Shown one piece after another: positions 13,115 to 48,127 of a stretch of DNA of 64,000 nt. Origin of the DNA: a virus (taxonomy: Duplodnaviria; Caudoviricetes); the IMG/VR virus record IMGVR_UViG_3300030330_005258, positions 64,001 through 128,000 of that record; one strand, 5' to 3'. Numbering within the stretch: the first letter of the stretch is position 1; every line of letters begins with the position of its first letter. Below the pieces are notes generated by a model. That model had not been told where the DNA came from, did no database searches, and worked only from the letters and a program-made list of their open reading frames with translations. The position numbers and the translations under genes are program-made.

Positions 13115-13437
13115 CTTATGTTTTTGATATAGACGGAACCATATGTTCCAAAACAGACGGAGACTATACACAAGCAAAACCTTTTCATGATAGAATCAAG
13201 AAAGTGAATCGCCTTTATGATGAAGGGCACATGATTATCTTCTTAACCGCAAGAGGAATGGGAAGACATAATAATAATTTTCTTAATGCACAGAGGGACT
13301 TTTATGACTTCACTCTAGCGCAGTTAAAGCATTGGGGTGCGAAACACCACCAACTGTTTCTAGGTAAGCCATCCGGCGACTATTACATTGATGATAAGGG
13401 AATAAATGATGAAGACTTCTTCAACACAGGAAATTAA
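13111..13437 (+). CDS. HAD-superfamily phosphatase (capsule-biosynthesis type)
   Basis: FDIDGTIC, TARG, GKP..DYYIDDK. Confidence 0.85.
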   Translation: MTYVFDIDGTICSKTDGDYTQAKPFHDRIKKVNRLYDEGHMIIFLTARGMGRHNNNFLNAQRDFYDFTLAQLKHWGAKHHQLFLGKPSGDYYIDDKGINDEDFFNTGN

Positions 13438-24700: not shown

Positions 24701-24716
24701 GGTGAGGTACGCTTAG

Positions 24717-26513
24717 ATGGGAAATAAAAAAATAAATACGCCTGCAATCAATTACACCAATAGAGAATATGAAGGCATAAGGGAAGACCTTACGCAAATA
24801 GCAGAGCGCTTCTATCCTGATACATTTCAAGACTTTAGTGAAGCTTCGTTTGGTGCCATGATGCTAGACGCAGTGGCATACGTTGGCGACCAGCTTTCTT
24901 TTTATCTTGATTACAATGTAAACGAGGCGTTTTTAGATACATCATACCAGCTAAATAATATTATTAGGCACGGGCGCGTGCTTGGCTACAAAATTCCTGG
25001 CCGCCCTTCAACTTTTGGAACAGTTGCTTTGTATGTGCTGGTCCCCGCTAGTTTGACTGCCCTTGGACCCGACAGAAGATACATACCAATAATAAAAAGA
25101 GGAACGAGATTTAATAGCACAAATGGATCTAATTTTGTTCTAACCGAAGATGTCAACATGGCAGAATCATCCAACCCGGTAGTGGTGGCCAGAACTGATG
25201 CCACGACCGGAGCCCCAACATTTTTTGCTGTCAAGTCATACGGCAAAGTTGTTTCGGGTTTCTTTAACACAGAAACAATTGATGTCGGTGCATTTGAAAG
25301 ATTTAGAAGAGTTCAACTTACTGAGCCTAATGTTTCAGAAATTATTAGTGTTTTTGACTCCGAAGGCAATGAATATTTTGAAGTTGAGAATCTTTCGCAA
25401 GACACTGTATTCAAAACTTTAACAAACAAAAATTATAAAAACGATAATGTTCCTTCAGTTATGAAACCCCTTTTGGTAAATAGAAAATTCATGACCGTGT
25501 TTGATAGAGACGGCGTTGCACTACAATTTGGAAGCGGTGACGAACTGAAAGGCGATGTAGTTGCAGAACCACAAAGTTTAGCTATTGATGTTTTTGGAAA
25601 ATCTTATGTGACTGATACATCATTTGATCCAAGCAGATTGGTTTCAAACAAATACTACGGAATTGTTCCACAAAATACAGCGTTGACAATATTATATCGA
25701 CAAACAAATCCAACGAATTCGAATGTAGCAGCAGGTTCTATCAGCAATGTCGCAAGTTCAATTTTAGAATTTGAAGATTCATCTGTACTAGCTGCTGGGA
25801 GCATTAGGGCTGTTAGGGCTTCTCTTGAGGTTTCAAATGAAACCCCGATTGTCGGAAACGTATCAAACCCAACATCTGCTGAAGTTAAACAAAGAATCTA
25901 CGACACCTTTCCAACACAAAATAGGGCGGTAACACAAAGGGATTATGAAAATCTGGTTTATAGAATGCCCGCCAGCTTTGGGTCAATTAAGAGATGTTCA
26001 GTACAAAAAGACCCAGATTCACAAAAACGAAATCTCAATGTCTATGTTGTTTCAGAAGATCCCCAGGGAAAATTAATTAACTCAAACACTACCATAAAGG
26101 AAAATATCAAGACTTGGCTAAATCATTATCGTATGATTAACGATACAATTGATATTCTTGATCCATTTATAATAAATATTGGAATTAATTTTGTTGTCAA
26201 ACCAGAAGTTAATTCTGATAAATTTAAAGTTTTAAACGATTGCGTAAACGCCATAGCTGCGGAGTATAACAATCCACTTTTCATTGGAGAATCCCTATCT
26301 CTCTCTAGAATTTTCAATATTTTGAATAATGTAAATGGTGTTAATGATGCAGTGAAGGTGCAGATTGTTAATAAAAATTCATCAAACTACTCAAATGTAT
26401 TTTTCCAAATTGGTGAAAATATGTCCCCCGACGGAGATATGCTAATATGCCCAAAGAACGCCATATTTGAACTAAAATTTCCAGAAGTAGATGTAAAAGG
26501 TAAGCTAAGGTAA
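24717..26513 (+). CDS. Baseplate wedge subunit, T4 gp6-like
   Basis: NYTNREYEGIREDL, DFSEASFGAMMLD.VAYVGDQLSFY, LQFGSG, QNRAVT.RDY. Confidence 0.9.
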   Translation: MGNKKINTPAINYTNREYEGIREDLTQIAERFYPDTFQDFSEASFGAMMLDAVAYVGDQLSFYLDYNVNEAFLDTSYQLNNIIRHGRVLGYKIPGRPSTFGTVALYVLVPASLTALGPDRRYIPIIKRGTRFNSTNGSNFVLTEDVNMAESSNPVVVARTDATTGAPTFFAVKSYGKVVSGFFNTETIDVGAFERFRRVQLTEPNVSEIISVFDSEGNEYFEVENLSQDTVFKTLTNKNYKNDNVPSVMKPLLVNRKFMTVFDRDGVALQFGSGDELKGDVVAEPQSLAIDVFGKSYVTDTSFDPSRLVSNKYYGIVPQNTALTILYRQTNPTNSNVAAGSISNVASSILEFEDSSVLAAGSIRAVRASLEVSNETPIVGNVSNPTSAEVKQRIYDTFPTQNRAVTQRDYENLVYRMPASFGSIKRCSVQKDPDSQKRNLNVYVVSEDPQGKLINSNTTIKENIKTWLNHYRMINDTIDILDPFIINIGINFVVKPEVNSDKFKVLNDCVNAIAAEYNNPLFIGESLSLSRIFNILNNVNGVNDAVKVQIVNKNSSNYSNVFFQIGENMSPDGDMLICPKNAIFELKFPEVDVKGKLR

Positions 26514-27931
26514 TGGCAATTAGAAGATATAAGGCAACAGCCGACAACACAATAGCGAATGGCTATCAAGAAAATTTAGCTACTCGTGCCACAGGCTCCA
26601 ATATGGGACTGGCAGATGTTAGTGAGGTTTATTCTATTTATGGCAGACAATCAGCAGCTTCATCAGAATTATCAAGAATAATTACACAATTTGATGTAGC
26701 TTCGATTACTGCTGATAGGAATGCGGGCGATATACCTGCATCTGGGCAAGTAAAATTTTATTTGAAACTTTATAACGCTGAAACTTCTAAAACTGTTCCA
26801 AAAGATTTTAAACTAGTTGTAGAGGCGATTTCTCGTGCTTGGACTGAAGGTGACGGCTTGGATCTTGAAAACTACAAAGATCTTGGTGTTTCAAATTGGA
26901 TTAGCGCCTCCAGTGGTGTAGCCTGGACAACTGCGGGTGGCGACTATCACGCAACTCCAACATATGAGCAGACATTCGAGACTGGTCTTGAAGATTTAGA
27001 AATTGATATTTCGACACTCGTAGAACAATGGATAGCAGAATCTAAAGCAAATTATGGTGTTGGTGTGAGATTAACATCTTCATTGGAGTCGGCTACAGAC
27101 TCTTACTATACTAAAAGATTTTTTGCAAGAGGCACACAATACTTTTTTAAAAAACCTGTAATTGAAGCTAGATGGGATTCGTCAATCCAAGACGACAGAG
27201 GAGACTTTTATATGTCTTCTTCGTTAGCCCCGGCATCTGATAATTTAAATACTCTATATCTTTACAACTACATTCGCGGACAATTGACAAATATTCCTGC
27301 GGTTGGCACCGGAGAAATATATGTTGACCTTTACGAAACACTAGGCGAAACAGCATTGACCCAGGTAATTGCGACTCCCGCAACAGGCGGATATGTCTCA
27401 ACTGGAATATATTCTTGCTCTGTTTGCTTAACAGGGACTTACTCAACCTTGCGCGACGTTTGGCACACAGGCGGCGTTGAATACTTTACAGGAAGTATTT
27501 CTCCTGAATCGTTTGCGGCGACTTCATTTTCGAACGGCAACTACCGATATGTGACAAAAATAAAGAATTTAAGAAATAAATATTTCTCGGAGGAAGAGGC
27601 TCGCTTCAATGTCTACGTCAGAAACAAAAACTGGTCCCCAACTATTTATACAGTAGCGTCAGCGGAAATAGAAAATACCATTATTGCAAGCGCATCATAC
27701 AGAGTTTATAGAGTTTTGGATGGACTGAATGTTATACCACACGGCACCGGATCAGACTTACATACAATTCTTTCCTACGATGTTTCAGGAAACTATTTCA
27801 ATCTCGATATGTCGCTTCTTGAACCGGGATACGAATATGGCATCAAACTCGCATTCTATGATTCACAGAGGCAATCTTGGATCGAGCAAGACCAAAAATT
27901 CTTATTCCGAGTAGAAGATCATGAGTACTAG
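26513..27931 (+). CDS. Virion structural protein (baseplate/tail, beta-rich)
   Basis: ATADNTI, SRIITQFD, YLKLYNA, W.EG.G, W.TAGGDY, KPVIEARWD, NYFNLDMS.LEPG..Y. Confidence 0.7.
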   Translation: MAIRRYKATADNTIANGYQENLATRATGSNMGLADVSEVYSIYGRQSAASSELSRIITQFDVASITADRNAGDIPASGQVKFYLKLYNAETSKTVPKDFKLVVEAISRAWTEGDGLDLENYKDLGVSNWISASSGVAWTTAGGDYHATPTYEQTFETGLEDLEIDISTLVEQWIAESKANYGVGVRLTSSLESATDSYYTKRFFARGTQYFFKKPVIEARWDSSIQDDRGDFYMSSSLAPASDNLNTLYLYNYIRGQLTNIPAVGTGEIYVDLYETLGETALTQVIATPATGGYVSTGIYSCSVCLTGTYSTLRDVWHTGGVEYFTGSISPESFAATSFSNGNYRYVTKIKNLRNKYFSEEEARFNVYVRNKNWSPTIYTVASAEIENTIIASASYRVYRVLDGLNVIPHGTGSDLHTILSYDVSGNYFNLDMSLLEPGYEYGIKLAFYDSQRQSWIEQDQKFLFRVEDHEY

Positions 27932-30900
27932 AGATTTATTTGAACGTTCAAAAAATTATATTTCAGATACCGACCAGAGGGACGCGTTTTCTGATGCAGA
28001 ATCATCAAGAAACGTAGATGCAATTTCTGAAAAGCATAAGTCTTTTGAACCACAGGTAGATTATAGCGAGCCGCTATCTTTTGCCCGCTTTGGTTCTGCT
28101 GAGCTATACTATCAGGGCGCGTTTGATAGGATCAAAGATTTCTATCCGTATGATGGCTCAGATGCTGAATACAACGAGTTTTATAACAAATCGCTAGATA
28201 TTGAAAAATACATTTTCAATAACTTATATCCTCGGACCAATGGTTATGTTAACTTTTCAAGTTCGTCAATCTCGCTGAAAGGCGGACCGCACACAATCAG
28301 TTCTAATAAAACAAAGGGTCTTTTTAAGGATCCAGAATCTTCTCAGAGAGAGACAGCAAATGTTTATGATGAAGATATCTACACCACCGCCGGACTCCCA
28401 ACAGATTACGGAGAGGGAACAAGGGAATCAAACTTAAAGTGTGATTTTCAGACTGGTGTAACGATTGAGTTTTGGCTCAAAAATGATACACTAGATACAA
28501 ACACAAAACAAGCACTTTTTCACTTAACAAATTCCTCTGGCGGCGATGAGTTTACGTTATATTTATCAGGCACTTCGGGCTCTCCATTTTTTACGACGCT
28601 TAGCTCTTCGCACGTAGCAAGGTTTGGAGATGCTAGAATTGGCTCTACCCCCGACACAAGTTCTATTCAGCAATGGAACCATTATGCAATCTCTTTTAAA
28701 AACACAGGCAGCGGCACATCAACCAAATTTTATATTAATGGCGTCTTGGATCAGACCATTGTTCTTGGCAGCAGTGGCTTTAACCCGCTAACCCAAAAAG
28801 AGACTGTTGCCCACATCGCATCTGGTTCTCATGATGAAGGTCATCTCTTTTTCTCCGGCTCTATGGATGAGTTTCGTTTTTGGAAGACCGAGAGAACAGC
28901 ACAAGATATTGGTAGAAATTGGTTTGGGCAAGTGCGGGGCGGCTCAAATACAGACATTTCTAATACCACCCTTGGTGTCTATTATAAATTTAACGAGGGT
29001 ATAACAGGTGTCACAGCAACAGATAGCGTTGTTCTTGACTATTCTGGTCGTATTTCTAACGGAACTTTTAACGGATACACAGCTACATCTAGAAATACTG
29101 GGTCGGCTATTGTATCTGCTAGTGCTGCCACCACAGAGTACCTTGATCCAATTATCTATGGCACTCACCCATCGGTATCTAGTTTAAGAACTACTCTGAT
29201 CAACAGAGGTATCGATCACGACTCTCGAAACAATGCTGCTTTTGTTACCATGATGCCAAGTTGGATTCTTGAAGAACATGAGGAAATAGGCAATACTAAC
29301 TTTAAATATTTAAGCCACATAATAGGCTCTTATTTTGATAAGCTGTATCTTCAGATTGAAGCTGTATCGACCCTGAAGTCGCCAATCTATACCAGTTCGT
29401 CGTACAAGCCACTCCCATTTGCTAGTCATATGCCTGCTTCACTTGGGCTTGAAACGCCTGAAATCTTTGTTGATGCAAATGTTCTTGAAAAATTTATAAA
29501 CAAAAGTGAAACACAAGCATATGAAAATGATTTAAATGACGTAAAGAACTTGATCTATTTAAATCTTTACAACAACTTGACTTATCTTTTTAAGTCTAAG
29601 GGAACAGAAAAAGCAATAAGAAATGTTTTACGTGCTTTTAATATAGATGACAAACTTGTTAGATTTAACACTTATGCAAACAACTACACTTTTGAGCTTG
29701 AGAATAATCTAAAAAATACAATTGTAAGAAAATCATCTGCAAATTTCAACAAAGCTTCGCACCTTGGTGCCGTTGTTTACTCCTCCGGCTCGGCTACTAG
29801 CAGGCAGCTTGGGTACATCTCAGGCTCAGACGTTGACTCACACGAGTTAAGATATGGTTTAACTCACGAAGTTGATGTTATATTCCCCAAATTTATTAAA
29901 ATTATAGATACTTTTAGCAGAGATTTTACAAGAGTATCGCTGTTCGGTTTACATTCTGCTAGCGCAAACAGTCCGTCTACCACTGTATATGATCCAAGCT
30001 TTTATGTATACGCGCAGCGCGATGAAGCATACTCTAAAAATGTCAAGTTTGTATTAAGTTCCTCTTTGCTTTCCAGTGAAATATCAAGTAGCCTATATCA
30101 CGGCGTCTACGATGATGAAAACTGGAATCTCTCAGTCAGGATTAAGCCGGATGCCCTAGATCTTACTGGATCTGTTGACGGGGTGGCGGCTTCAAATTAT
30201 ACAATTGAGTTTGCTGGATATAATCAAAGGCTGGGTGAGATTAGAAACTTCTTTAAGGTTTCTGCTTCGGCAAATCAAGCTAACACGCAAAACTTATTAA
30301 AATCTCCAAAAAGGTCTTTCGTTGGCGCACACAGAACCAATGTCACCGGCGCTCTGGAATACAAGTCAGACACTTTAATAACAGCGACGAGATTTTGGAC
30401 ACAGTATCTTGACGACACTTCGCTACAGCAACACGCCTTTGATTTTGATAATTATGGTGTTGCTGACGCAAATCAACACTTGTCGCCTTTGGATCCTGAT
30501 AATAGCAAGACTCTGAACAGACACACGTTAGCATTGAACTATGAATTTAGAAACGTAACAGCTTCGGACGGCACTGGTGCCTTTACAGTAACTGACATTA
30601 GTTCTGGCTCTCTGGACGGTCTTGCAGGGCATTACGGCAAACTGGGCGAGATATCATCCTATCTATATCCCGGCGTAGGTTTTGGCTTCTCAGCAAATTC
30701 CTCAGATGTTGTGTTAAAGCAAGAAGTAAATTCGCACCAGTTCATAAATCCCGAACTAGCTATCGGCAGCAACCTCGTTCAAATAAGAACTGATGATGAT
30801 AAGTTATTTGATTCTGTTGATACAATTCCAAATTATCACTATATTCTTGAAAAGAGCATGTATAACGCAATTTCCGAAGAGATGCTTAATTTCTTTGCCG

Positions 30901-33900
30901 GCGTAAACGACTTTCATAATCTTATAGGACATCCAGTCCATCAATATAGAATGGAATATAAGGGCTTAAACAAGCTCAGAGAATCTTTTTTCCGCCGTGT
31001 AACGAGTGTTACAGAAGTCGAGAGATTCGTAGATTACTATAAGTGGTTTGACGACACCATGTCCCAAATAATAGGACAGCTTATACCTGCGTCGGCTGAT
31101 TACACGCCAGATATCTTAAACACTATCGAGTCCCATGCTCTGGAGCGCAACAAATACCAACATAAAATTCCCATGATGGCTTTCACCTCCTCCACGGAGG
31201 GGGTGGCTTTTGGTGCGGAAGAGCTTCGTTATGATTGGCAAAGAAACCATGCTCCTGTCGGCGGACTAGAAAAGCAAAATTCAAATTGGTGGAAAGAGCG
31301 CGCTGAACGACAAGGGACCATTAGTTCAGGTGATGCTAACGTAGACACCGCAAGAAGTCAAATTAGAAGAGTAGCAACAAATCAAACTAACGGTAGTGTT
31401 GGAAGAAGTTTCACAGATGACGGCACAAGATATACTCGTTCTAATTTCAAATATCGTACTCTATCGAAGGGCTTTGTTTTCGAGAAGAAAATATCAAGAG
31501 AAATCAAAGGTGGAACGAATTTTGAACATAACAAAGATATACACTTTGCTTATACCGCACTACATCCCGCTGGTCCAGTAACAACTGAAGATAATGTCTT
31601 TGTTCCACAAAACGTGCTGCTAGGATTTGTAGACGACTTGGTCGCCCTTCAAGATACAAGCGACCCACCAAAAATACCAAATGAAAAGATTAAAAGAAAT
31701 ATTTTGGTTTTGCATGGTCGTGATTACGAAGCTGGTGTCGGCTACAAGAATAGAAAATCTTCCTTCTCCTTCCCATTCAATATAATATCCTCTTCTGTTA
31801 CTACTGGGTACAACAAGTCAGTAGTAGAGCTTGTTACCGCTAGCATCGAAGTTACTAACCTACATAACGATGTATATGGTCCAGACATGGAGCGCCCCAT
31901 GCAAGGCATCTTTACAGAGCACGCTGTGGGCGGTCACCAATCGAGACACGTAAAGCTAAACACAGGTGGCGACAATTACCTCAACAGACCTGAAGCATGG
32001 AAGATTCTGCTCGGCGCCAACTGCAATAGTTTAACTGGAGCGATTGGTATGGTCGGCGCCGATTATCCATGGCCAGAGGCTAATGATGTTGGCGAAACCC
32101 CCTATCCGCTCACAGGCGCACAAAGAGCCACCTTCTTCCGTGATGAGCTAGCGAAGCGACCAGTCAACGTTCGCAACATTAGACATACAACTGGCTCTAC
32201 AATTCTTGGCAACTATAATGAAAATTACGATATAGTTCATTCTGTTGGTGGCTTTTCAAACCCAAGGGCGTTTATCGATGAACAGCCAACAATTCCTACA
32301 AAAGCAGTTGGTGCTGACGTGGTTCGAACCATGCTCGATTTTAATAGCAGAGAGCCGACCCGCTTCAAGTTTATTGACGACTATAGTGTAGGGTATCTAA
32401 CAGGCTCTGGCGGATATAGAAACAAAACAATTATTAAAAGCAGGTTCTCCGCTCCTGGCTCACGAGAGTCGCTCTCACTAGCATTCAGAGATATACGTTC
32501 TGCTGATTTTTCAGTCTACAATGAAACAAATAATAGAAACCTTTCAGTTCGCCGCCCGTTTCAGGGAGTCACTTCCTCGATTGTTTCTGAGACGACCGGA
32601 ATAAGGAATTTTGATCATACTGGTAGAGATTTCGGATTTACAAACTTGGCTGCCCGGCACGCAGGAAAGTTCTTCAGGGACAGCGTGTTTCAAAGTAATC
32701 CTGGCGCAGATGATGACGCATTTGATGAATTGCCCTCATTCCACAAGACACATAGAAATAATAAAATTACACCCATTGATAGAGATACTCCCTCAACTAT
32801 ACAGAAATTTGATAACCTAAACGTCCAGCACCAAATACCAAGGTCAGATAGACAATATTCTTGGTTCTCCTCTTCGATTGTCCACACTGATAATACAGAC
32901 CCAAGATACGCTGGTTTTATGCAAACAGATTCTGCAATCGCTCCGTACTATGAAGCTACTGGAACTCTGGTTCCTTTTTTCGACTATGTCTCGGGCTCTG
33001 CGACTGGGTTTAAAGGTTTTGGAATGAGTAAGAGGCAGGTTAATGTGTTCCAAAACACTACTAGATTGAATCTTTTGACTTTAGATAGAACTGGTTCAGA
33101 AATAAATACCCTTGGCGATGGAGATATCAGCGCCGACCTCTTCTTGCCGGGCTACCTTGATGAAGAGGCAGCCAGATTTAACGCGCTGCTGATTCGCCGT
33201 GGCGATTTGTACGGGTGGAACTGGCGCGCATTTAGACAGCAAGACCACCCAATCTTACGCCGAGAGCACCAAGAAAATCTATTAACAGCAGTCAAGAGTA
33301 GTGAAATAAAAGAATTCAGACTACCTCCTGTTTCTATGAGAGGGCGACCTGTTGTTGCTAATATGAATGTTAACGGCGAAAACATGTCCCTTAGAACAAC
33401 TCATAATAATGAGAAAATTTATTTTAATCAACGAGAATTGAATGATCTTACGTTCCCAAGTGACGATATAACTGTAACACCACTTGACGAACTATTTGAT
33501 GTTTCCCTCCAACGCGGAGCAACATTAAACTGGGTTCATTATTCTGAAGCTCTCTTCCCATCATCAAGAAACGAATTCTCAAGCGGATCACGGGCGAAGC
33601 TTGGTTACGATAACCAATTCTGGAGAGATTCAAATTCTGATAGAATTGTCACTGGGTTGAATTCATTTGGGGTTCAAAACGTAGTGCAAAGCAAATGGGT
33701 CATAGATGCTCAGGAAGATTTTCTTACCAGAACAGGCATCGTTACAGCAGATGCGTCTAGTCCTTTTGACAACCTAATTGTTGGAGGCAAGGCAGGCGAG
33801 CTACAAAATAATTATGTGTCAGTGGCGTCCGGCTCTTCCCATTTGTCAACTTTGAAAAAAAGCTTAAGAGCCGGTGCCCTTATGTCTCGCAAGCAAGAAC

Positions 33901-36788
33901 TTACCTCACCTAACTCCGTGGTTGCAAGATCCGGCTTTGCTAAGACTGGCAGCCTCGACAACACATTTGCAGATCAAGTACCCATCTTTGGTGGCGAGGC
34001 GCTTTGGGAAGCAGGCACCCACGCATCCATTAATGTTAGATCTGAAGATACATTTGTAACATCTAATCATCCTTCAGAACCTTGGTTTGACAAGTATGAC
34101 GACTTTATCGAAGAGTTACAGCTTGTGGCGAGAGATCACGCAATTGTTCCAGAATTTAGAATATCTGAGCACATTGATAGTTATGTTAAAGGGGGTCTAT
34201 TTAACAAAACTGCATTTGACACATTTGAAATACACCACACGGATATAAGCAGTTCACAACAAAATTTCTACAAAGATTACTCTAACTCTGATTTCTTACG
34301 AGAGTTTGCAAGCATTAAAGACAAGTCTGGACTAAACGCAAAAGAAATAATGCTTACCTGTAAAGCAGCCGTCCGTTTTAATCCGTATAAAGGCTTTTAT
34401 CCAGCACAAAGAACAATCGATTTGGTTTCTCAATTTAATTCTTCATTTTCCGAGGGATTTGCGTCCCTGATTAACGGGGAGCCAGTAACCGATGGTAATC
34501 TTATAGCATCAAACGACAAATCAAGAACGTTGCGACCTATGATACAGCCATTGTTCGCCCCCGGTATTTTGTATAATTCGATTAAATCAGGCATTGCCGT
34601 TGATTATCCAGTAATAACCACGCCGTTCAAAGTAAATTCTATAAATTATACTGGCTCTGCTTTTGGTGGACTCAAAGCAGAAAATTACATGCTATCTCCA
34701 ATAATTAGCACCAACGCGTTTGATCCACTAACGACTAGCCCCACTGCTTCAACAATTTGGGATTATAGAGTCCCATTTGAGACGATGATAGAGCCCGGCA
34801 AGTATATTGACAAAGTTCAATTTTTAGATTTTGAGCCACACGTATCTGCGTCACTAAACGCTACGGCTTCCATGGATGCGTCAGTGTCAGATGGCATCTA
34901 CGAACTTATGGCAAAAAACTTTTTTGGACAAACAGGCGATTTCTTCTTAAAAGATTCGTCCTACACAAAGCTTGAGTCTGATTTGATACAAGATGGGCTC
35001 AAATTTAAAAATGGTGATGTTTTTGCTGCAAGATTAAAAATTAGAAAATCTCACAATGGAAATAGATATTACAATCTTGAATCAGGATCAACGGGAGACA
35101 ATGAGAATTTTTCATTCCTTGGTGCCCAAGCCTTTTCTGGCTCCGGCGGTGACGCTGCATTTGAAAAAATAGATGGCTCTTTTCCAATTCCACAAGACCC
35201 CGCCCATAATCCAGATTTTAAAGAAACATTTACAATGTATTCTCGACCAACCGCTTTCGGGCCTTCAATCAGCGGGAGACAAACTGTTGCAAAAACAATA
35301 AAAGCAAACGAATTAGAAGCATTCAATAGTGGTACATTGGATTCTCTTGAAGGCTTCAACTGGGCTTATACGCCGCCATATTATCATGGTGAATCTTGGG
35401 TAGATTTTATTTTCCGCCCAGATTCTACGAAAACTTACACACTTGAAGACGTTCTTTCTGAAACAGAAGCTGTTTATTGGCGCGTAGATCCGGGACAAAA
35501 ATCGGGCTCGGTGGGACTGGCTCGCAATTTGAATCCAAAACTTATCCATTCTCAAATTGAGCTTGGTACCTCAATTAGTGTTGGACAAATAGCGCCGATT
35601 TATGGTGGCAATGCCATAAATAATAATGCGATGCAACTTAACTCTTGTTTAAACCTGTTTGGTGTTGAAAGAGTTCCCAAAAAGAGAAAAGACAAGTTTA
35701 ACAACACGATACTAAACGAAAACGACATAGCAGGTAAGCGTTGGGTTATACAACCCAAGTGGGAAACCCCAATGCTTAACTTTGCTAATGTCTCGGCAGA
35801 CAACAACAACATAACTTACCCCACCACATTCTCTGAATCAGTTCCAAGAGGAATTTGGCACCAGTTTGGAGAAATCCCAACCGACGCCAGCACGGGGGTG
35901 TTCTTAGAAATAGGAGACATTCCAAACGATTGGCTAAAATTTCACTATGATGTGATTAGTGAAGACTCCGTATACAACAATCATAATGCTTACGACAGCG
36001 GCTCTTCAGCCTACCTTGATTATCAGTCTCTAACAGACCTATTTGGTTTCCAGCGCTCGCAGAAAAAGGACAGTGCCAAAGTTCGTCTTGGTGAAATTGC
36101 CGATAAGAGAGAAGTATATGAAGCGGTTGTTGCAATACCTTATATTCTTGAGGCAAACGAAGATTTTGCAAATGTAAAATCTGATGATGATAAAATTCGT
36201 AAGAAGTTTATTAATATTCCTCGTCCACGATTTACTTCTGCATTAAAAAAACGTGAAGGCTCCCAAGACGGTGATTCTTTGATGGTTGCAGGCGAGAGTA
36301 TTAGAAAGATGGTTCAAAAGATGAAGCGTTATGTCTTGCCCCCACAATTTGACTTTATTAACTTTGAAGAAATCGATCCGATTGTTATGTATTTCTTTGA
36401 ATTCAAGTATGAGTTTGATAAAGACGACCTGTCTTATATCTGGCAGAATCTCGCCCCGAGAGACTACAAAAAAATTACACTTCAAGAAGCCAAAGTATCA
36501 CACAATCTAATGAATAATGAATTGCTCGATCAGCAGAATTTAATAGATAATCCTAATTTGCGATGGATGGTGTTCAAAGTTAAACAAAAGGCAAATAAAG
36601 ATTATTACGATCTTGTCTTACCACAGATCAAATCTGCTAGACCAATTACGACTCTTGACAAACTTGAAACTGATAAGGACGATGAGTACCTACGGTTCAA
36701 TTGGCCGTATGATTACCTTTCCTTTGTTGAACTAGTTAAGCTTGAAGCTGATGTTTTGTACAAGGCTGAAGATGAAGAATCGCAATGA
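27921..36788 (+). CDS. Giant baseplate/tail protein (2955 aa) with LamG/ConA-like domain and gp7-like wedge motif
   Basis: TIEFWLK...WNHYAISF...FYING...FSGSMDEFRFWK (LamG-like); LFKSKGTEKAIRNVLRAF. Confidence 0.75.
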   Translation: MSTRDLFERSKNYISDTDQRDAFSDAESSRNVDAISEKHKSFEPQVDYSEPLSFARFGSAELYYQGAFDRIKDFYPYDGSDAEYNEFYNKSLDIEKYIFNNLYPRTNGYVNFSSSSISLKGGPHTISSNKTKGLFKDPESSQRETANVYDEDIYTTAGLPTDYGEGTRESNLKCDFQTGVTIEFWLKNDTLDTNTKQALFHLTNSSGGDEFTLYLSGTSGSPFFTTLSSSHVARFGDARIGSTPDTSSIQQWNHYAISFKNTGSGTSTKFYINGVLDQTIVLGSSGFNPLTQKETVAHIASGSHDEGHLFFSGSMDEFRFWKTERTAQDIGRNWFGQVRGGSNTDISNTTLGVYYKFNEGITGVTATDSVVLDYSGRISNGTFNGYTATSRNTGSAIVSASAATTEYLDPIIYGTHPSVSSLRTTLINRGIDHDSRNNAAFVTMMPSWILEEHEEIGNTNFKYLSHIIGSYFDKLYLQIEAVSTLKSPIYTSSSYKPLPFASHMPASLGLETPEIFVDANVLEKFINKSETQAYENDLNDVKNLIYLNLYNNLTYLFKSKGTEKAIRNVLRAFNIDDKLVRFNTYANNYTFELENNLKNTIVRKSSANFNKASHLGAVVYSSGSATSRQLGYISGSDVDSHELRYGLTHEVDVIFPKFIKIIDTFSRDFTRVSLFGLHSASANSPSTTVYDPSFYVYAQRDEAYSKNVKFVLSSSLLSSEISSSLYHGVYDDENWNLSVRIKPDALDLTGSVDGVAASNYTIEFAGYNQRLGEIRNFFKVSASANQANTQNLLKSPKRSFVGAHRTNVTGALEYKSDTLITATRFWTQYLDDTSLQQHAFDFDNYGVADANQHLSPLDPDNSKTLNRHTLALNYEFRNVTASDGTGAFTVTDISSGSLDGLAGHYGKLGEISSYLYPGVGFGFSANSSDVVLKQEVNSHQFINPELAIGSNLVQIRTDDDKLFDSVDTIPNYHYILEKSMYNAISEEMLNFFAGVNDFHNLIGHPVHQYRMEYKGLNKLRESFFRRVTSVTEVERFVDYYKWFDDTMSQIIGQLIPASADYTPDILNTIESHALERNKYQHKIPMMAFTSSTEGVAFGAEELRYDWQRNHAPVGGLEKQNSNWWKERAERQGTISSGDANVDTARSQIRRVATNQTNGSVGRSFTDDGTRYTRSNFKYRTLSKGFVFEKKISREIKGGTNFEHNKDIHFAYTALHPAGPVTTEDNVFVPQNVLLGFVDDLVALQDTSDPPKIPNEKIKRNILVLHGRDYEAGVGYKNRKSSFSFPFNIISSSVTTGYNKSVVELVTASIEVTNLHNDVYGPDMERPMQGIFTEHAVGGHQSRHVKLNTGGDNYLNRPEAWKILLGANCNSLTGAIGMVGADYPWPEANDVGETPYPLTGAQRATFFRDELAKRPVNVRNIRHTTGSTILGNYNENYDIVHSVGGFSNPRAFIDEQPTIPTKAVGADVVRTMLDFNSREPTRFKFIDDYSVGYLTGSGGYRNKTIIKSRFSAPGSRESLSLAFRDIRSADFSVYNETNNRNLSVRRPFQGVTSSIVSETTGIRNFDHTGRDFGFTNLAARHAGKFFRDSVFQSNPGADDDAFDELPSFHKTHRNNKITPIDRDTPSTIQKFDNLNVQHQIPRSDRQYSWFSSSIVHTDNTDPRYAGFMQTDSAIAPYYEATGTLVPFFDYVSGSATGFKGFGMSKRQVNVFQNTTRLNLLTLDRTGSEINTLGDGDISADLFLPGYLDEEAARFNALLIRRGDLYGWNWRAFRQQDHPILRREHQENLLTAVKSSEIKEFRLPPVSMRGRPVVANMNVNGENMSLRTTHNNEKIYFNQRELNDLTFPSDDITVTPLDELFDVSLQRGATLNWVHYSEALFPSSRNEFSSGSRAKLGYDNQFWRDSNSDRIVTGLNSFGVQNVVQSKWVIDAQEDFLTRTGIVTADASSPFDNLIVGGKAGELQNNYVSVASGSSHLSTLKKSLRAGALMSRKQELTSPNSVVARSGFAKTGSLDNTFADQVPIFGGEALWEAGTHASINVRSEDTFVTSNHPSEPWFDKYDDFIEELQLVARDHAIVPEFRISEHIDSYVKGGLFNKTAFDTFEIHHTDISSSQQNFYKDYSNSDFLREFASIKDKSGLNAKEIMLTCKAAVRFNPYKGFYPAQRTIDLVSQFNSSFSEGFASLINGEPVTDGNLIASNDKSRTLRPMIQPLFAPGILYNSIKSGIAVDYPVITTPFKVNSINYTGSAFGGLKAENYMLSPIISTNAFDPLTTSPTASTIWDYRVPFETMIEPGKYIDKVQFLDFEPHVSASLNATASMDASVSDGIYELMAKNFFGQTGDFFLKDSSYTKLESDLIQDGLKFKNGDVFAARLKIRKSHNGNRYYNLESGSTGDNENFSFLGAQAFSGSGGDAAFEKIDGSFPIPQDPAHNPDFKETFTMYSRPTAFGPSISGRQTVAKTIKANELEAFNSGTLDSLEGFNWAYTPPYYHGESWVDFIFRPDSTKTYTLEDVLSETEAVYWRVDPGQKSGSVGLARNLNPKLIHSQIELGTSISVGQIAPIYGGNAINNNAMQLNSCLNLFGVERVPKKRKDKFNNTILNENDIAGKRWVIQPKWETPMLNFANVSADNNNITYPTTFSESVPRGIWHQFGEIPTDASTGVFLEIGDIPNDWLKFHYDVISEDSVYNNHNAYDSGSSAYLDYQSLTDLFGFQRSQKKDSAKVRLGEIADKREVYEAVVAIPYILEANEDFANVKSDDDKIRKKFINIPRPRFTSALKKREGSQDGDSLMVAGESIRKMVQKMKRYVLPPQFDFINFEEIDPIVMYFFEFKYEFDKDDLSYIWQNLAPRDYKKITLQEAKVSHNLMNNELLDQQNLIDNPNLRWMVFKVKQKANKDYYDLVLPQIKSARPITTLDKLETDKDDEYLRFNWPYDYLSFVELVKLEADVLYKAEDEESQ

Positions 36789-40626: not shown

Positions 40627-40634
40627 GGAGTACT

Positions 40635-41036
40635 ATGTCTGGCAAAAAAATAAAAAAAGAAAATTTTAAGGGAATATCACAAACAAAGATTCGAATGGAA
40701 CTTGATTTTTTGGAAAAACAAAATACACAAATATTGGGTGATCTTTCAATCGTAGAAATAGATGTAAGTCGGTCATTTTCTTTTCGACAAACAGCTTTTG
40801 ATCCTGACTCAATAGAAAATCCAAACATTGTCGAAACAGAATTTTCAGAATTGAAAAATAATTTGACAAAAGTATCAGACAAATTTGATGAAATAGAAGA
40901 TCCATTTTTTGACTTGGACGATGCCCGAGAATCTATTTCAAAAAGAAAAATTATGAAACAGAATAATTTAAAAAACCTTGCCCGGAGAATCAGCAGCACT
41001 GGCAATAAAGCAGGCAAGAGGGGTAACTACAAATGA
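40635..41036 (+). CDS. Hypothetical protein
   Basis: AAGGAG SD; ATGA-coupled to the next gene. Confidence 0.65.
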   Translation: MSGKKIKKENFKGISQTKIRMELDFLEKQNTQILGDLSIVEIDVSRSFSFRQTAFDPDSIENPNIVETEFSELKNNLTKVSDKFDEIEDPFFDLDDARESISKRKIMKQNNLKNLARRISSTGNKAGKRGNYK

Positions 41037-41653
41037 GTTTTAAATTTAGTATTGAAGCAGGTATCGCGCTTTTATCAACCTATAATAAAATTGATGGTCG
41101 CTTTGTTAAATTTTTGCGTTCAATACCAAAAAATGAAAATGAAAGATTTTTTGATACCTACCCCCTGTCTAATTTTTCTATTATATCTGACGAAGATATA
41201 GATAGATTGCTTTTTTCAATTACGAAGGTAGACAGTAGAAATCTTGATGGACAATTGATATCGGAATACTATACTTTTGAGGATGCCGACGTGGAAGGAA
41301 ATACGATTCAAAATTATAGTCCCAACGAAATTGAATTTTTCAGATCTCGATACGCCCCAGCACAGCCTGAAATTCAGGTTGACTTAACCCCTCCAGCCGG
41401 CAATTTTAATTCATCACAAGCTGTGATTGAAAATAACGGAATGCAATATAATTCTTTATCATCTCTTGGCGAGTTTGCCCAAGAAGATTTTATAGTTACT
41501 GCAACTACAGGTTCGGCGACAGAACTAATTACAACTGCTACAGAGCAAATTTCTGATGTGGGTGGAACAATTTCTAGAGATAGAACAATAGAAAGCCAGG
41601 ACGTGCGCGTCGGCGGCAGCACTACCCAAACTGTAACAACTAGCGGATATTAA
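41033..41653 (+). CDS. Hypothetical protein (Thr/Ser-rich C-terminus)
   Basis: ORF coupled on both sides within the structural module. Confidence 0.65.
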   Translation: MSFKFSIEAGIALLSTYNKIDGRFVKFLRSIPKNENERFFDTYPLSNFSIISDEDIDRLLFSITKVDSRNLDGQLISEYYTFEDADVEGNTIQNYSPNEIEFFRSRYAPAQPEIQVDLTPPAGNFNSSQAVIENNGMQYNSLSSLGEFAQEDFIVTATTGSATELITTATEQISDVGGTISRDRTIESQDVRVGGSTTQTVTTSGY

Positions 41654-41654
41654 A

Positions 41655-44684: not shown

Positions 44685-44702
44685 CGGAAATAAATTTAAC
44701 TC

Positions 44703-44711
44703 ACTATTTAT
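44703..44711 (+). promoter_or_regulatory. Putative late promoter ACTATTTAT
   Basis: Fully intergenic; identical copies at 50453 and 60001. Confidence 0.65.
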
Positions 44712-44728
44712 GTGAGAGAGGAAAATAA

Positions 44729-45736: not shown

Positions 45737-45747
45737 CGGAGAAATTA

Positions 45748-46803
45748 ATGCCTATCTATTACGAACCAATTAATGGACAAACAGACGTAGCGACCACAAG
45801 AACGTTATTGCACGAGGTTATTCCGCTAACAGGAACAATAGTCAGCGGAACCTATGGCACGTTCCCCAATGAAGAAAACATTAAGAACTATTCACATGGA
45901 CAATTTCAGACAGTCTACGATTATCCATTTTTAAGTTCATCTGCCAATCACATCTTTGATTTGTCTGTGGGGTATGACGAAAGCTCGGGCTACTCTGGTT
46001 CTGCGAGTCGAGTACAACAAAGAAAAAAAATTAATATGTACAACCAAATGTCTCAAGTTCTCTTGGGATATACTGGGTCCGCTAACACCGTTAGAAAGTT
46101 CGAATCTGATTTAACTCTCGACGGCTCAAATGCAATGAACGAAGTCTTCTTCGTGAACTTTTCGCGACTAATATCCAAGGATCAAGTTAAAAAGGGCTCG
46201 GTATCAGTCACGCTTTTGACGGGCGCCTATTCCGCAGGCACAGCCTCTGGCGGGACAATAACTTATTCTGATTCCAATGCTTCTGACACTGGCGGCACAC
46301 TCAATACTGTCGGCGGTGATTATGGTGTTTTGCTAGACAAATCTGTTACACCCGCCTTAACTGGTGGCATCGTGTTTTACCAAGCAGGCATTATGGTCCT
46401 TACGGCATCTGCATTTAGTAGCTCGGTCGGTCTTGCTTCAAACTTTTTTGAGAATGAAAGCGTACCGGCGGTAATCACAGGCTCTGCTATTTCTGGCGCT
46501 TGTGATGCGCTAAGACAAAGAATACAAAATATCCAGTTCAATAACACAACTGAAATTAACTCAACAGTATATTTCTGTCGCGCACCGCATAACAAGTTTA
46601 ACTATTCTAGTAACCCAACTTATCTAAGCTCAAGCTCAATTAGAGTTAAGAATAATGTTCGTGCAAATCCGCCAATATCTTATATCACAACCATCGGGCT
46701 TTACAATTCACAAAATGAGCTTCTTGCGGTAGCTAAGCTTTCAGAGCCCCTACGCAAAGATCCAACAAACGAGCTAACTCTCCGCGTCCGGCTGGACTAC
46801 TAA
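45748..46803 (+). CDS. Virion structural protein (tail/baseplate)
   Basis: C-terminal FNYSSNPTY...YITTIGLYN...ELLAVAKLSEPLRKD...RVRLDY. Confidence 0.72.
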   Translation: MPIYYEPINGQTDVATTRTLLHEVIPLTGTIVSGTYGTFPNEENIKNYSHGQFQTVYDYPFLSSSANHIFDLSVGYDESSGYSGSASRVQQRKKINMYNQMSQVLLGYTGSANTVRKFESDLTLDGSNAMNEVFFVNFSRLISKDQVKKGSVSVTLLTGAYSAGTASGGTITYSDSNASDTGGTLNTVGGDYGVLLDKSVTPALTGGIVFYQAGIMVLTASAFSSSVGLASNFFENESVPAVITGSAISGACDALRQRIQNIQFNNTTEINSTVYFCRAPHNKFNYSSNPTYLSSSSIRVKNNVRANPPISYITTIGLYNSQNELLAVAKLSEPLRKDPTNELTLRVRLDY

Positions 46804-46813
46804 GGAGGGCAAG

Positions 46814-48127
46814 ATGTCCCTCAAGAAGTTTGGACAAAGTGATATAATAAGAAATGGGTTGAGGGCTTATCCTCACAACTCATTTTTTATATATTCCTCT
46901 TCAGTCTACTATGGTCACAGACCAATAGAAGCAGGGAAGTTCAATAATGACATATTGTCTGCCTCCGGTGGCATTAGCTTGTTTGAGTATAATGTTGATA
47001 GGGCTGGCAACACAACGATAGATAATGATAGCAATATTGGCACCGATGGAGCTAACACTCCCATAATCCCATATACCGCCGGTCGAGGCAATAGTTCTTT
47101 AAGTTACCTAAAAGCTACTCCACGAAGTAGAACATTGACCGAAGGTCCGCATCTTTCTTTTGAAATAACAGCATCGGGTCCAATGCAAGAGGTCGCAGAT
47201 GTAATAGTTGTGTCAGAAAACGTCGTATTTACCGGCTCGTCTTATCCTATGTCTGCCTCTATTATCAGAGAATTTATGACAACGGCAGGCTCTACTGGTT
47301 CATTAACTGATGTCGCAAGACCGGCTAATAGGCACTACTATGGTCTTCGCAATTCTTTAAACTTTTATGGCACGCGGTCGCCTCATTATTTTGTAGAATT
47401 CTCAGCATCTAACATAGGTGCCTGGAACAAAGATGAACAAGATATCAATCTTATATCAATACCAAAAATATTTTATGGTTCTCGCATAAAGCCGGGCTCT
47501 ATGTCTCTAAAGTTTTACATCACTGGTACTTTAGTCGGCGAACTTAAAGACGAAAAATACAATGGCGAATTGATACAAGTAGGACCGGTCGGCTCTACTG
47601 GATCCGGTTCTGTGGCTGGTGTTGCGATGTATGAAGAGGGCTTCGCTTTGCTAACAGCAAGCTGGAATCTAACATCAGAAGCATTTGATTTTGGCGAGTC
47701 TGTGAATAAAACTGGGTCGTGGACTTATTTTGCTGCTGGCGCCAAAGATGGCAGAGAGGTCTCAACATCTGCATCCTTTGATTTATCTTTCAAGGGTCAC
47801 ACCGAGACTCAAATCTTAACCATGTATGCCCACGCCCACAGAGGCGAAGTAAATTATTCTAACAATCCCACGTTTTTAGAATACGGACAAGATAAAATAT
47901 TTTTAACATCGTCTAACATTTACATCGAAAATGACAAGCAAACAATTAAAAATACAGTATCTTCAAGTTACGAAGGGCACAATTCTGCGTTCGAAAGGCA
48001 GGTCTATGTCTCGCGTGTTGCAATCTACGATGACAATAAAAAACTTATCGGTGTCGCCACACTCTCAAGCCCAGTGCTCAAGAAAGAAGCACAAGACTTA
48101 TCATTCAAACTAAAGTTGGATATATAG
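46814..48127 (+). CDS. Virion structural protein (C-terminus paralogous to 45748..46803)
   Basis: IPKIFYGSRIKPGS, NYSNNPTF, YVSRVAIYDDNKKLIGVATLS.PV.K...FKLKLDI; AAGGAGG SD. Confidence 0.72.
   Translation: MSLKKFGQSDIIRNGLRAYPHNSFFIYSSSVYYGHRPIEAGKFNNDILSASGGISLFEYNVDRAGNTTIDNDSNIGTDGANTPIIPYTAGRGNSSLSYLKATPRSRTLTEGPHLSFEITASGPMQEVADVIVVSENVVFTGSSYPMSASIIREFMTTAGSTGSLTDVARPANRHYYGLRNSLNFYGTRSPHYFVEFSASNIGAWNKDEQDINLISIPKIFYGSRIKPGSMSLKFYITGTLVGELKDEKYNGELIQVGPVGSTGSGSVAGVAMYEEGFALLTASWNLTSEAFDFGESVNKTGSWTYFAAGAKDGREVSTSASFDLSFKGHTETQILTMYAHAHRGEVNYSNNPTFLEYGQDKIFLTSSNIYIENDKQTIKNTVSSSYEGHNSAFERQVYVSRVAIYDDNKKLIGVATLSSPVLKKEAQDLSFKLKLDI

What the first reader, a model, noticed from the sequence alone, without database searches (positions are those of the whole stretch)
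26513..48127. Dense [ST]-[GAS]-S tripeptides in a subset of tail proteins: candidate O-glycosylation sequon
Seen: TGS/SGS/SAS/TAS/SSS recur as isolated, spaced tripeptides, often after a hydrophobic residue (FTGSS, ITASG, LTASW, YTGSA, ISGSD, VSASA). Hand count of non-overlapping [ST][GAS][ST]: 14 in the 437-aa protein (46814), 10 in the 351-aa protein (45748), dozens in the 2955-aa protein and several in 26513. They are scarce in the 2143-aa and 963-aa proteins and in the enzymes. Codons vary, so it is not a DNA repeat. Inference: a surface-loop acceptor motif for the phage's own glycosyltransferase(s), linking the sugar cluster to the virion.
Basis: partly seen in the sequence, partly recalled or inferred. 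Interest (0 to 1): 0.8.

Follow-up and report, generated by a model that had tools for sequence, protein, structure and literature searches.

The report
Serine tripeptide motif on phage fibres
A short serine-containing motif really is 4-5 times over-represented in the outer tail, baseplate and fibre proteins of an abundant, uncultured ocean T4-like phage. It is inherited together with a conserved pair of sugar-transferring enzymes, so it may mark where the virus attaches sugars to its own particle, but no tool here can show an attached sugar.

Summary
[ST]-[GAS]-S is 3-5 times over-represented in the 472-, 2955-, 351- and 437-aa proteins (z 4-10). It is also enriched in three fibre-like proteins outside the window. 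The motif depends on residue order, position 3 is Ser-specific, hydrophobic residues flank it, and its codons vary. Orthologues keep it, as does an 817-cluster family.

It is not a general fibre feature: T4 and S-PM2 show none, P-SSM2 one Ser-rich ORF and HTVC008M two mild ones.

It is not tied to the sugar cluster in the window. Relatives lacking that cassette keep the motif, and P-SSM2 shares the heptose module without it. The motif is inherited with a core nuclease-GT4a-GT4b block found in more than 160 contigs.

Only one cultured phage, Microcystis phage Mel-JY01, has a GT4a relative, and it has nine motif-rich proteins. Next to its densest one it encodes a TibC-type protein-serine O-heptosyltransferase (E 1e-69).

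In 33 of 80 other phage loci with such an enzyme, adjacent tail fibres carry the same motif grammar.

Against the reading:
- This clade has no TibC-like gene.
- A known TibC-type substrate uses S-G-G instead.
- One jumbo phage has the enzyme but not the motif.
- Surface exposure could not be computed.

I put O-glycosylation acceptor at about 0.45 and purely structural at about 0.35.

The parts
26513..27931 (+). 472-aa protein immediately after the gp6-like baseplate wedge gene; motif-rich (7 sites against 2.1 expected)
   Evidence: No Pfam or PHROG match. Distant homologue in Mel-JY01 at the same position, also motif-rich.
27921..36788 (+). 2955-aa giant baseplate or fibre protein with a Laminin_G_3 (ConA-like) domain at residues 177-330; 40 sites against 9.9 expected (z 10). 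Sites occur in most 100-aa bins between about residues 100 and 2700, densest at 200-399 and 600-899.
   Evidence: The orthologue in the complete relative G002 (3936 aa) has 51 against 16.0, z 10.3.
45748..46803 (+). 351-aa protein, a distant paralogue of the 437-aa protein; 8 sites against 2.0 expected
   Evidence: The orthologues keep 6-11 sites each, with changes that stay within the motif class (TAS, TSS, SSS, SGS) at the same column.
46814..48127 (+). 437-aa beta-sandwich protein, the motif-densest in the window; 13 sites against 2.5 expected (z 7.2). It belongs to an 817-cluster, uncharacterised phage family with about 11 conserved motif columns.
   Evidence: AF2 model with pLDDT 77. No PDB match. 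BFVD matches to uncultured-phage proteins, a few labelled ConA-like or LamG.
24332..26513 (+). gp25-like (24332-24700) and gp6-like (24717-26513) baseplate wedge genes. They anchor the module and are not motif-rich.
   Evidence: PHROG matches; counts 0 against 0.1 and 0 against 1.2.
73..13774 (+). Strain-variable nucleotide-sugar cassette: SDR epimerases and dehydratases, two split ThDP enzyme pairs, aldo-keto reductases, a methyltransferase, an RmlC-like epimerase, a GMD-like dehydratase, an HldE-like kinase and nucleotidyltransferase, and a cupin. It could supply a glycan, but it is not linked to the motif.
   Evidence: Absent from G002 and Mel-JY01, which keep the motif. Its heptose module is shared with P-SSM2, which lacks the motif. 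The kinase has 48%-identity homologues beside phage BAHT genes in 23 loci.
44704..44710 (+). One copy of the clade's candidate late promoter core (A)CTATTTA, 18 nt upstream of the 335-aa gene that heads the 335/351/437 gene run
   Evidence: 42 copies on + against 5 on -, upstream of sheath, tape-measure, fibre and head-tagged genes.

Best explanation
Phi-[ST]-[GAS]-S-Phi (Phi = hydrophobic residue) is a short element at the end of a beta-strand, where a turn or loop begins. It occurs in baseplate, fibre and tail-module proteins of a wide group of aquatic T4-like phages. I think it most likely serves as the acceptor site for cytoplasmic O-glycosylation of these virion proteins by phage-encoded glycosyltransferases.

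The logic would be that of the bacterial autotransporter heptosyltransferases (BAHT: TibC, Aah). [quoted passage not shown] In this marine clade the candidate enzymes are the core GT4a-GT4b pair (genome 55749-58276, just upstream of the window). The strain-variable sugar cassette in the window would supply and elaborate the glycan.

Shown here: the motif, its grammar, its distribution over proteins and phages, its co-inheritance with GT4a/GT4b, and the adjacency of BAHT genes to motif-rich fibres in relatives.

Inferred only: that any site carries a sugar, which residue is modified, which enzyme does it, and that the window's cassette feeds it.
For: 1. The motif is real, order-specific, Ser-specific at position 3 and written with varied codons.

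2. It occurs in at least four protein groups unrelated by sequence in one virion: 351+437, 218+331+395, the 2955-aa giant and the 472-aa protein. Weaker enrichment is seen in the non-core part of the sheath and in a neck-like protein. It is not enriched in gp6, gp25, the major capsid protein, the 2143-aa protein or the enzymes.

3. It is not a general feature of T4-type fibres. T4 has 30 observed against 36 expected over 26 structural proteins, and S-PM2 has 0 enriched ORFs. P-SSM2 has 1, which is Ser-rich and low-complexity.

4. GT4a is a core gene of the clade: more than 160 contigs at 57-82% identity. All five related records tested carry GT4 (Glycos_transf_1) genes, two or three each.

5. 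A prospective test held. Of five cultured phages, only Mel-JY01 has a GT4a relative, and it has nine ORFs with z of at least 4.

6. Mel-JY01 encodes a GT4 domain fused to a TibC-like domain (E 1e-69 to PDB 4RAP). All four iron-finger cysteines named in PMC4358343 align with cysteines. The gene lies just downstream of a 508-aa structural protein with 24 sites, separated from it by one small ORF.

7. Of 80 further phage BAHT loci, 33 hold at least one strongly enriched ORF within 10 kb, and 38 of 42 such ORFs are on the same strand. The two giant ones tested by Pfam are Peptidase_S74-ended tail fibres. None of the 42 is a BLAST homologue of our motif-rich proteins except two distant group-B relatives. 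They share the same fine grammar, including features not used to select them: Ser over Thr at position 3, and hydrophobic residues on both flanks.

8. In the confident part of the 437-aa model, most sites abut a strand end with position 1 at the loop start. This matches the Aah rule quoted in PMC3835316.

9. No ThyA or dCMP-hydroxymethylase family member is present in this record or in two complete relatives. That weakens DNA as the target of the glycosyltransferases.
Against: - This clade has no BAHT or GT9 gene, and that includes two complete genomes.
- Its GT4s match only generic models, with no GtfA/GtfB match.
- An AIDA-type passenger domain encoded beside a BAHT gene is enriched for S-[GA]-[GA] (22 against 4.3) and not for [ST][GAS]S (8 against 6.7). 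Our proteins show the reverse.
- A complete 343-kb phage with a BAHT but no GT4a shows no enrichment at all (ratio 1.04).
- Co-occurrence with GT4a is not phylogenetically independent, because Mel-JY01 shares the capsid, gp6 and other genes with this phage.
- Many sites are conserved in position, as structural residues would be.
- Non-virion proteins do not avoid the motif (ratio 0.85, not significant).
- A near-consensus sigma70 promoter precedes the nuclease-GT4 block, so the GTs may be early genes.
- Solvent exposure could not be computed, because no coordinates were available.
- HTVC008M has two mildly enriched proteins and no GT4a relative.
Confidence: 0.45

Rival explanations
1. The motif is purely structural. 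Phi-[ST]-[GAS]-S-Phi would be a strand-capping or tight-turn idiom: a small residue packed between two hydrophobic ones, with Ser/Thr hydroxyls capping the turn. It would belong to beta-sandwich and beta-solenoid modules that have been shuffled among the fibre and baseplate proteins of this phage group, and nothing would be attached to it. The glycosyltransferases would serve another target.
For: - About 11 motif columns are conserved across a family with 30% mean column identity. LTGSW, [LV]TSSN and VSSSY are kept in 11 of 11 orthologues.
- Sites sit at boundaries between strand and turn.
- Paired sites such as TGS-Phi-x-Phi-SGS look like a short strand capped at both ends.
- The 437-aa fold and the giant's LamG_3 domain may both be ConA-like sandwiches. 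Module sharing is visible between group B and the Mel-JY01 508-aa protein.
- The clade has no dedicated protein glycosyltransferase that can be identified.
- Non-virion proteins do not avoid the motif.
Against: - The motif spans at least four groups with no detectable sequence relationship, plus part of the sheath.
- It is absent from the functionally equivalent beta-rich proteins of T4, S-PM2 and P-SSM2.
- Ala and Ser are common at position 2, which a strict Gly-dependent turn would not tolerate.
- The DSSP register of the sites differs from site to site.
- The motif repeatedly sits beside protein-serine glycosyltransferase genes in other phages.
Confidence: 0.35
2. The motif is a recognition element for something other than a glycosyltransferase. 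Candidates are another modification (for example phosphorylation by one of the phage's kinases), a fibre-assembly chaperone, or a paired-hydroxyl surface that binds host or environmental polysaccharide.
For: The distribution across families, restricted to virion proteins, argues for a common external agent. The alternation of hydrophobic and hydroxyl residues suggests that the position-1 and position-3 hydroxyls face the same side (inference).
Against: No candidate partner was found to be inherited or encoded together with the motif, whereas glycosyltransferases are. Nothing tested here bears directly on binding or phosphorylation.
Confidence: 0.1
3. The enrichment is an artefact of Ser/Thr/Gly-rich composition or low-complexity segments.
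For: The enriched proteins are somewhat richer in Ser (0.10-0.12) than the others. Some BAHT-adjacent proteins are collagen-like SGS arrays, where periodicity alone inflates the counts.
Against: Global and local shuffles both give z 3-10. Permuted residue orders are only 1.3-1.6 times expectation, against 5 times for the motif. Sites are isolated, with irregular spacing. The 335-aa neighbour has similar composition and is not enriched.
Confidence: 0.02

Closest known systems
Bacterial autotransporter heptosyltransferases (BAHT: Aah/AIDA-I, TibC/TibA; PMC4358343, PMC3835316)
   Same: A cytoplasmic enzyme multiply O-glycosylates beta-rich surface adhesins. [quoted passage not shown] The sugar is a nucleotide-activated heptose, and this phage encodes an HldE-like kinase and nucleotidyltransferase. 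A true TibC homologue (E 1e-69) sits next to motif-dense fibre genes in Mel-JY01 and in many uncultured phages.
   Different: This marine clade has no BAHT or GT9 gene. An AIDA-type passenger next to a BAHT gene is enriched for S-G-G and not for [ST][GAS]S, and our proteins show the reverse. The substrates would be phage virion proteins, not secreted bacterial adhesins. One phage has a BAHT and no motif.
Mycobacteriophage virion glycosylation (Freeman et al. 2023, Cell Host Microbe; as described in PMC12619734; the paper itself is not held)
   Same: Phage-encoded glycosyltransferases decorate the phage's own virion proteins with O-linked glycans.
   Different: There the glycans sit on the C-termini of capsid and tail-tube subunits of siphoviruses. 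Here the candidate sites are internal and dispersed over baseplate, fibre and tail-module proteins of a T4-like myovirus, and the capsid protein is not enriched (3 against 1.7). The acceptor sequences of that system could not be checked.
GtfA/GtfB (GT4 pair) glycosylation of serine-rich-repeat adhesins, and SdgA/SdgB of SD-repeat adhesins
   Same: An adjacent pair of GT4-fold proteins, and Ser acceptors in S-x-S type sequence on surface fibres.
   Different: There is no NCBIfam match to GtfA or GtfB, and only far-sub-threshold matches to SdgA/SdgB. The sites here are isolated and flanked by hydrophobic residues, not long low-complexity repeats.
Bacteroidota general O-glycosylation sequon D-[ST]-[ALIVMT] (from my own knowledge)
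   Same: A three-residue O-glycosylation sequon defined by sequence.
   Different: The sequence is different, that system is periplasmic and lipid-linked, and no Asp preference is seen here.

Membership tests
BAHT-type protein O-heptosylation system (TibC/Aah with substrate) | A TibC/Aah-family enzyme (N-terminal barrel, GT9-like core, four-Cys iron finger) encoded by the genome | tested here: not met
   PF01075 and PF21129 have no match in G000 or in the complete relatives G001 and G002. tblastn with the Mel-JY01 BAHT domain finds nothing in G000 or G002. The feature is met in the distant relative Mel-JY01 (E 1e-69 to 4RAP, all four Cys aligned).
BAHT-type protein O-heptosylation system (TibC/Aah with substrate) | A supply of nucleotide-activated heptose | tested here: inconclusive
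   A pfkB kinase, a cytidylyltransferase-like nucleotidyltransferase, a weak (sub-threshold) LNS2/HAD-like match and a cupin are present at window 11994-13774. The kinase has 48%-identity homologues beside BAHT genes in 23 phage loci. The product sugar is not known.
BAHT-type protein O-heptosylation system (TibC/Aah with substrate) | [quoted passage not shown] | tested here: inconclusive
   In the 437-aa model, sites at 28, 197, 281, 300 and 319 abut strand ends. This rests on one model and DSSP only, with no coordinates. The second model failed (pLDDT 41).
BAHT-type protein O-heptosylation system (TibC/Aah with substrate) | Substrate rich in S-G-G type corners, as in AIDA-I and TibA repeats | tested here: not met
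   S[GA][GA] is 15 against 13.1 in our seven motif-rich proteins, compared with 22 against 4.3 in an AIDA-type passenger.
Phage virion O-glycosylation (mycobacteriophage type) | Phage-encoded glycosyltransferases together with glycans on capsid and tail-tube C-termini | not testable with these tools
   Glycosyltransferases are present. Glycan attachment needs mass spectrometry. The capsid protein is not motif-enriched.
GtfA/GtfB serine-rich-repeat glycosylation | GT4 pair belonging to the GtfA and GtfB families | tested here: not met
   The NCBIfam scan of both GT4s returns only generic GT4 models far below their cut-offs and no GtfA/GtfB model.
437-aa protein family (uncharacterised phage beta-sandwich) | Full-length homology to the 817-cluster family with conserved motif columns | tested here: met
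   phmmer gives 817 clusters, 356 of them at E up to 1e-30. All 150 representatives are enriched, with a pooled ratio of 4.45.

The most novel reading that the evidence does not exclude
An abundant group of ocean and freshwater T4-like phages coats its tail fibres, baseplate periphery and sheath surface with glycans. These would be O-linked at a defined Phi-[ST]-[GAS]-S sequon by core phage enzymes: the GT4a-GT4b pair, supplemented in some lineages by phage TibC-type heptosyltransferases encoded beside the fibre genes. Swappable sugar cassettes would make the glycan strain-specific. That would be the first sequence-defined sequon for phage virion glycosylation, and a variable glycan coat on the host-recognition apparatus of environmentally dominant phages.
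Probability: 0.35. Interest if true: 0.85.

Novelty: new variant of a known kind. Interest (0 to 1): 0.68.

Why it matters
Virion glycosylation in phages has so far been shown only for mycobacteriophage capsid and tail-tube C-termini. Large sugar clusters in marine phages are usually attributed to modification of DNA or of the host surface.

If this motif marks glycan attachment sites, an abundant ocean phage group would decorate the proteins that contact the host with strain-variable sugars. That would bear on host range, on evasion of receptor-mimic or antibody-like defences, and on particle stability.

The motif would also give a sequence rule for predicting phage glycoproteins from metagenomes. 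Independently of that reading, the work shows that TibC-type protein O-heptosyltransferases are common in phages and sit next to tail-fibre genes. The literature I could search does not describe this.

The idea can be tested directly, because one member of the group, Microcystis phage Mel-JY01, is in culture.

Tried and rejected
- **Composition or low complexity as the cause:** rejected. Global and local shuffles and permuted residue orders all leave the enrichment standing.
- **DNA repeat:** rejected. The 68 sites use 61 distinct 9-mers.
- **Simple paralogy of all motif-rich proteins:** rejected. A profile of the 437-aa family finds only the 351-aa paralogue, and BLAST defines separate groups.
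- **A general property of T4-type fibres:** rejected.
- **A link to the window's own sugar cassette:** rejected.
- **The motif as the enterobacterial BAHT sequon:** rejected. The AIDA-type control shows S-G-G instead.
- **The motif as a universal correlate of phage BAHT genes:** rejected by G009.
- **GtfA/GtfB identity of the GT4 pair:** no NCBIfam match.
- **DNA glycosylation through hydroxymethyl-pyrimidines:** no ThyA-family gene in three genomes. Other DNA chemistries were not excluded.
- **The T4 late promoter TATAAATA as a timing marker:** not used by this phage. The clade's own candidate late motif, CTATTTA, lies upstream of the glycan block, but a strong sigma70-like promoter also precedes the nuclease-GT4 genes, so timing is ambiguous.
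- **Avoidance of the motif in non-virion proteins:** none.
- **Extra conservation of motif serines over other serines:** marginal or absent (p = 0.06 and 0.41).
- **Fold identification of the 437-aa protein:** no convincing PDB match by Foldseek or VIA-align; the best Z is 6.0, within the noise range.
- **AF2 model of the 351-aa protein:** failed, pLDDT 41.
- **GT4a status of contigs holding the ~2470-aa motif-rich fibres:** unresolved, because the records are 44-58% complete or not held.
- **Sources:** Freeman et al. 2023 and any paper on Mel-JY01 are not in the library.

Full report
**Setting.** The window is bases 64001-128000 of a 154.6-kb IMG/VR virus record, estimated 64% complete. All genes lie on the + strand. 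PHROG matches identify gp25-like and gp6-like baseplate wedge genes at 24332 and 24717. Outside the window lie a T4-type sheath, a tape measure and a major head protein. So this is an uncultured T4-like myovirus, and complete relatives are 191-196 kb. The proteins in the finding follow gp6 directly, where T4 has gp7-gp12. They have no Pfam or PHROG match except a Laminin_G_3 domain in the 2955-aa protein.

- [ST][GAS]S is 3.3-5.2 times expectation in the four proteins (z 4.0-10). Shuffling within 20- or 40-residue blocks still gives z 3.1-9.0.
- The signal depends on residue order. [ST][GA]S is 51 observed against 10.3 expected, while the four permuted orders are 1.3-1.6 times expectation. Position 3 prefers Ser strongly over Thr.
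- Position -1 is hydrophobic in 42 of 68 sites, position +1 avoids charge, and the sites use 61 different 9-mers. Over the seven motif-rich proteins of the genome, Phi-[ST][GAS]S is 7.2 times expectation and [ST][GAS]S-Phi is 4.5 times.
- The other structural proteins of the window pool to 0.97 times expectation, and 114 non-virion ORFs to 0.85 times.

**Extent within the virion.**
- A genome-wide scan adds three fibre-like paralogues outside the window (218, 331 and 395 aa). It also shows weaker enrichment in a neck-like 425-aa protein and in the sheath.
- In the sheath, all eight sites fall in residues 147-603, and none falls in the Pfam-matched sheath domains at 672-956. Reading 147-603 as outward-facing insertion domains is my inference.
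- A profile of the 437-aa family detects only the 351-aa paralogue. BLAST separates at least four unrelated groups.
- So the motif spans several protein families but stays within baseplate, fibre and tail-module proteins.

**Conservation.**
- Orthologues at 41-80% identity in 18 IMG/VR loci keep the enrichment (z 3.3-7.5).
- Many sites are fixed in position. Where they vary, the changes stay within the motif class: TAS, TSS, SSS and SGS occur at a single column.
- The 335-aa neighbour is not enriched in any orthologue.
- The 437-aa protein belongs to a family of 817 clusters at 50% identity. All 150 listed representatives are enriched (pooled 4.45 times), and about 11 columns read Phi-[ST]-[GAS]-S-Phi.
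- Motif serines are not clearly more conserved than other serines.

**Structure.**
- An AF2 model of the 437-aa protein (pLDDT 77, with a confident core at residues 150-345) is a beta-sandwich.
- In confident regions the sites abut strand ends: 28 lies between two hairpin strands, 197 and 281 at strand ends, and 319 at a strand start.
- No solved structure matches convincingly. BFVD matches are uncharacterised phage proteins, a few labelled ConA-like or LamG.
- Coordinates are not exposed, so burial could not be measured. A second model, of the 351-aa protein, failed.

**Glycan genes.**
- The window's first 13.8 kb encode nucleotide-sugar enzymes, including an HldE-like kinase and nucleotidyltransferase.
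- Upstream of the window lie two GT4, a GT2, a GT10-like protein, a NodU-like carbamoyltransferase, a PseB-like dehydratase, a phosphomannomutase and an aldolase.
- Comparison with the complete relative G002 and with Mel-JY01 shows that only the PD-(D/E)XK nuclease-GT4a-GT4b block is core: 59-70% identity in G002 and 27-31% in Mel-JY01.
- The sugar cassette inside the window is absent from both, yet both keep the motif. P-SSM2 shares the heptose module (40-66%) without motif enrichment.
- GT4a occurs in more than 160 viral contigs at 57-82% identity.

**Controls and a prospective test.**
- T4's 26 structural proteins are not enriched (30 against 36).
- I searched five cultured phages for GT4a before scanning them. 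Only Microcystis phage Mel-JY01 has it.
- Whole-genome scans then gave these counts of ORFs with z of at least 4 and at least 5 sites: nine in Mel-JY01, seven in G002, two mild ones in HTVC008M, one Ser-rich one in P-SSM2 and none in S-PM2.
- Mel-JY01 shares the capsid (37%), gp6 (31%) and other genes with this phage. It is therefore a deep relative, and the co-occurrence is co-inheritance, not independent evidence.

**The BAHT lead.**
- In Mel-JY01 a 1226-aa protein is encoded just downstream of the 508-aa "structural protein" that carries 24 sites, with one small ORF between them.
- Its N-terminal GT4 domain is most similar to our GT4b. Its C-terminal 377 residues align end to end with TibC (E 1e-69), including the four iron-finger cysteines.
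- TibC and Aah heptosylate serines of autotransporter beta-helices in the cytoplasm (PMC4358343). [quoted passage not shown]
- IMG/VR holds 347 relatives of this phage BAHT.
- In 33 of the 80 fetched loci at least one ORF within 10 kb is strongly enriched. That is 5.5% of ORFs, against 0-1.7% in the control genomes. These ORFs lie 32-7565 nt from the BAHT gene, and 38 of 42 are on the same strand.
- The two giants I tested end in a Peptidase_S74 chaperone domain, which marks tail fibres. One of them is collagen-like, with SGS arrays.
- After removing the SGS arrays and near-duplicates, 16 such proteins show the same grammar as ours. This includes features not used to select them.
- 23 of the loci carry a 48%-identity homologue of our HldE-like kinase.

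**Limits of the BAHT lead.**
- Our clade has no BAHT.
- An AIDA-type passenger encoded next to its BAHT is enriched for S-G-G and not for this motif.
- A complete 343-kb phage with a BAHT but no GT4a has no enrichment.
- So the motif is not the BAHT sequon as such. Among five large BAHT contigs, the two with a GT4a relative are the ones whose BAHT loci hold motif-rich ORFs.

**Other targets for the glycosyltransferases.**
- No ThyA-family hydroxymethylase occurs in three genomes, which weakens DNA glycosylation.
- Timing is ambiguous. The clade's candidate late promoter CTATTTA has 42 copies on + against 5 on -, and it precedes the virion genes. Copies lie upstream of the gap-free glycan block. 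A near-consensus sigma70 promoter, however, precedes the nuclease-GT4 genes.

**Verdict.**
- The motif is real and specific. It is widespread in one large group of aquatic T4-like phages, and I found no description of it in the literature I could search.
- Its spread across families, restricted to virion proteins, and its repeated association with protein-type glycosyltransferases favour an O-glycosylation acceptor role. I put this at about 0.45.
- A purely structural strand-cap motif remains nearly as likely, at about 0.35.
- The two are not exclusive. By my reading of the AIDA-type repeat, the S-G-G acceptor sites of BAHT substrates are themselves likely turn or corner residues.

Noticed in passing
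Microcystis phage Mel-JY01 (PP395634) 4750-8430 = L111:4750-8430; IMG/VR loci L170-L249: TibC-type protein O-heptosyltransferases are common in phages: 347 relatives in IMG/VR. They are often fused to GT4 or other domains (ORFs of 370-1312 aa) and sit next to Peptidase_S74-ended or collagen-like tail-fibre genes. I found no description of this in the searchable literature.
   Followed up: partly
genome-wide; in the window e.g. 24693, 44704, 50454, 60002: The clade's candidate late promoter is (A)CTATTTA, not T4's TATAAATA. It has 42 copies on + against 5 on -, lying 7-70 nt upstream of sheath, tape-measure, fibre, head-region and head-tagged effector genes.
   Followed up: partly
genome 54952-58276 (9 kb to 5.7 kb upstream of the window start) = L020:10952-14276: A conserved core block, PD-(D/E)XK nuclease then GT4a then GT4b, is preceded by a near-consensus extended -10 sigma70 promoter (TTGACA-17-TG-TATATT). 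It is conserved from marine relatives to a freshwater Microcystis phage. The pairing of a nuclease with two GT4s is unexplained.
   Followed up: partly
window 11994-13774: The heptose-activation module (pfkB kinase, nucleotidyltransferase, a small ORF with a weak LNS2/HAD-like match, cupin) is shared at 40-66% identity with Prochlorococcus phage P-SSM2. The kinase alone is shared at 48% with many BAHT-carrying phage contigs. This looks like a mobile sugar module among aquatic phages.
   Followed up: partly
window 17878-24309: A 2143-aa protein just upstream of the gp25-like gene has no Pfam or PHROG match and is depleted in the motif (1 against 3.0). Its role is unknown; a hub or spike protein is one possibility.
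   Followed up: no
genome 146104-149007 (outside the window; L022:104-3007): The tail sheath is 967 aa. The Pfam sheath domains cover only residues 672-956, so the N-terminal two thirds are extra sequence. All eight of its motif sites lie there, at residues 147-603.
   Followed up: partly
window 48127-48468: A 113-aa ORF directly after the 437-aa gene matches phrog_15610, annotated 'protease' (E 3.5e-30). It precedes RuvC-like and primase genes. Whether it relates to the fibre genes is unknown.
   Followed up: no
Pelagibacter phage HTVC008M (NC_020484) 33435-36485 and 37918-43923: Two large proteins show mild enrichment of the same tripeptide (12 against 4.5, and 21 against 9.2), although the phage has no GT4a relative and no GT4-family match.
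   Followed up: no
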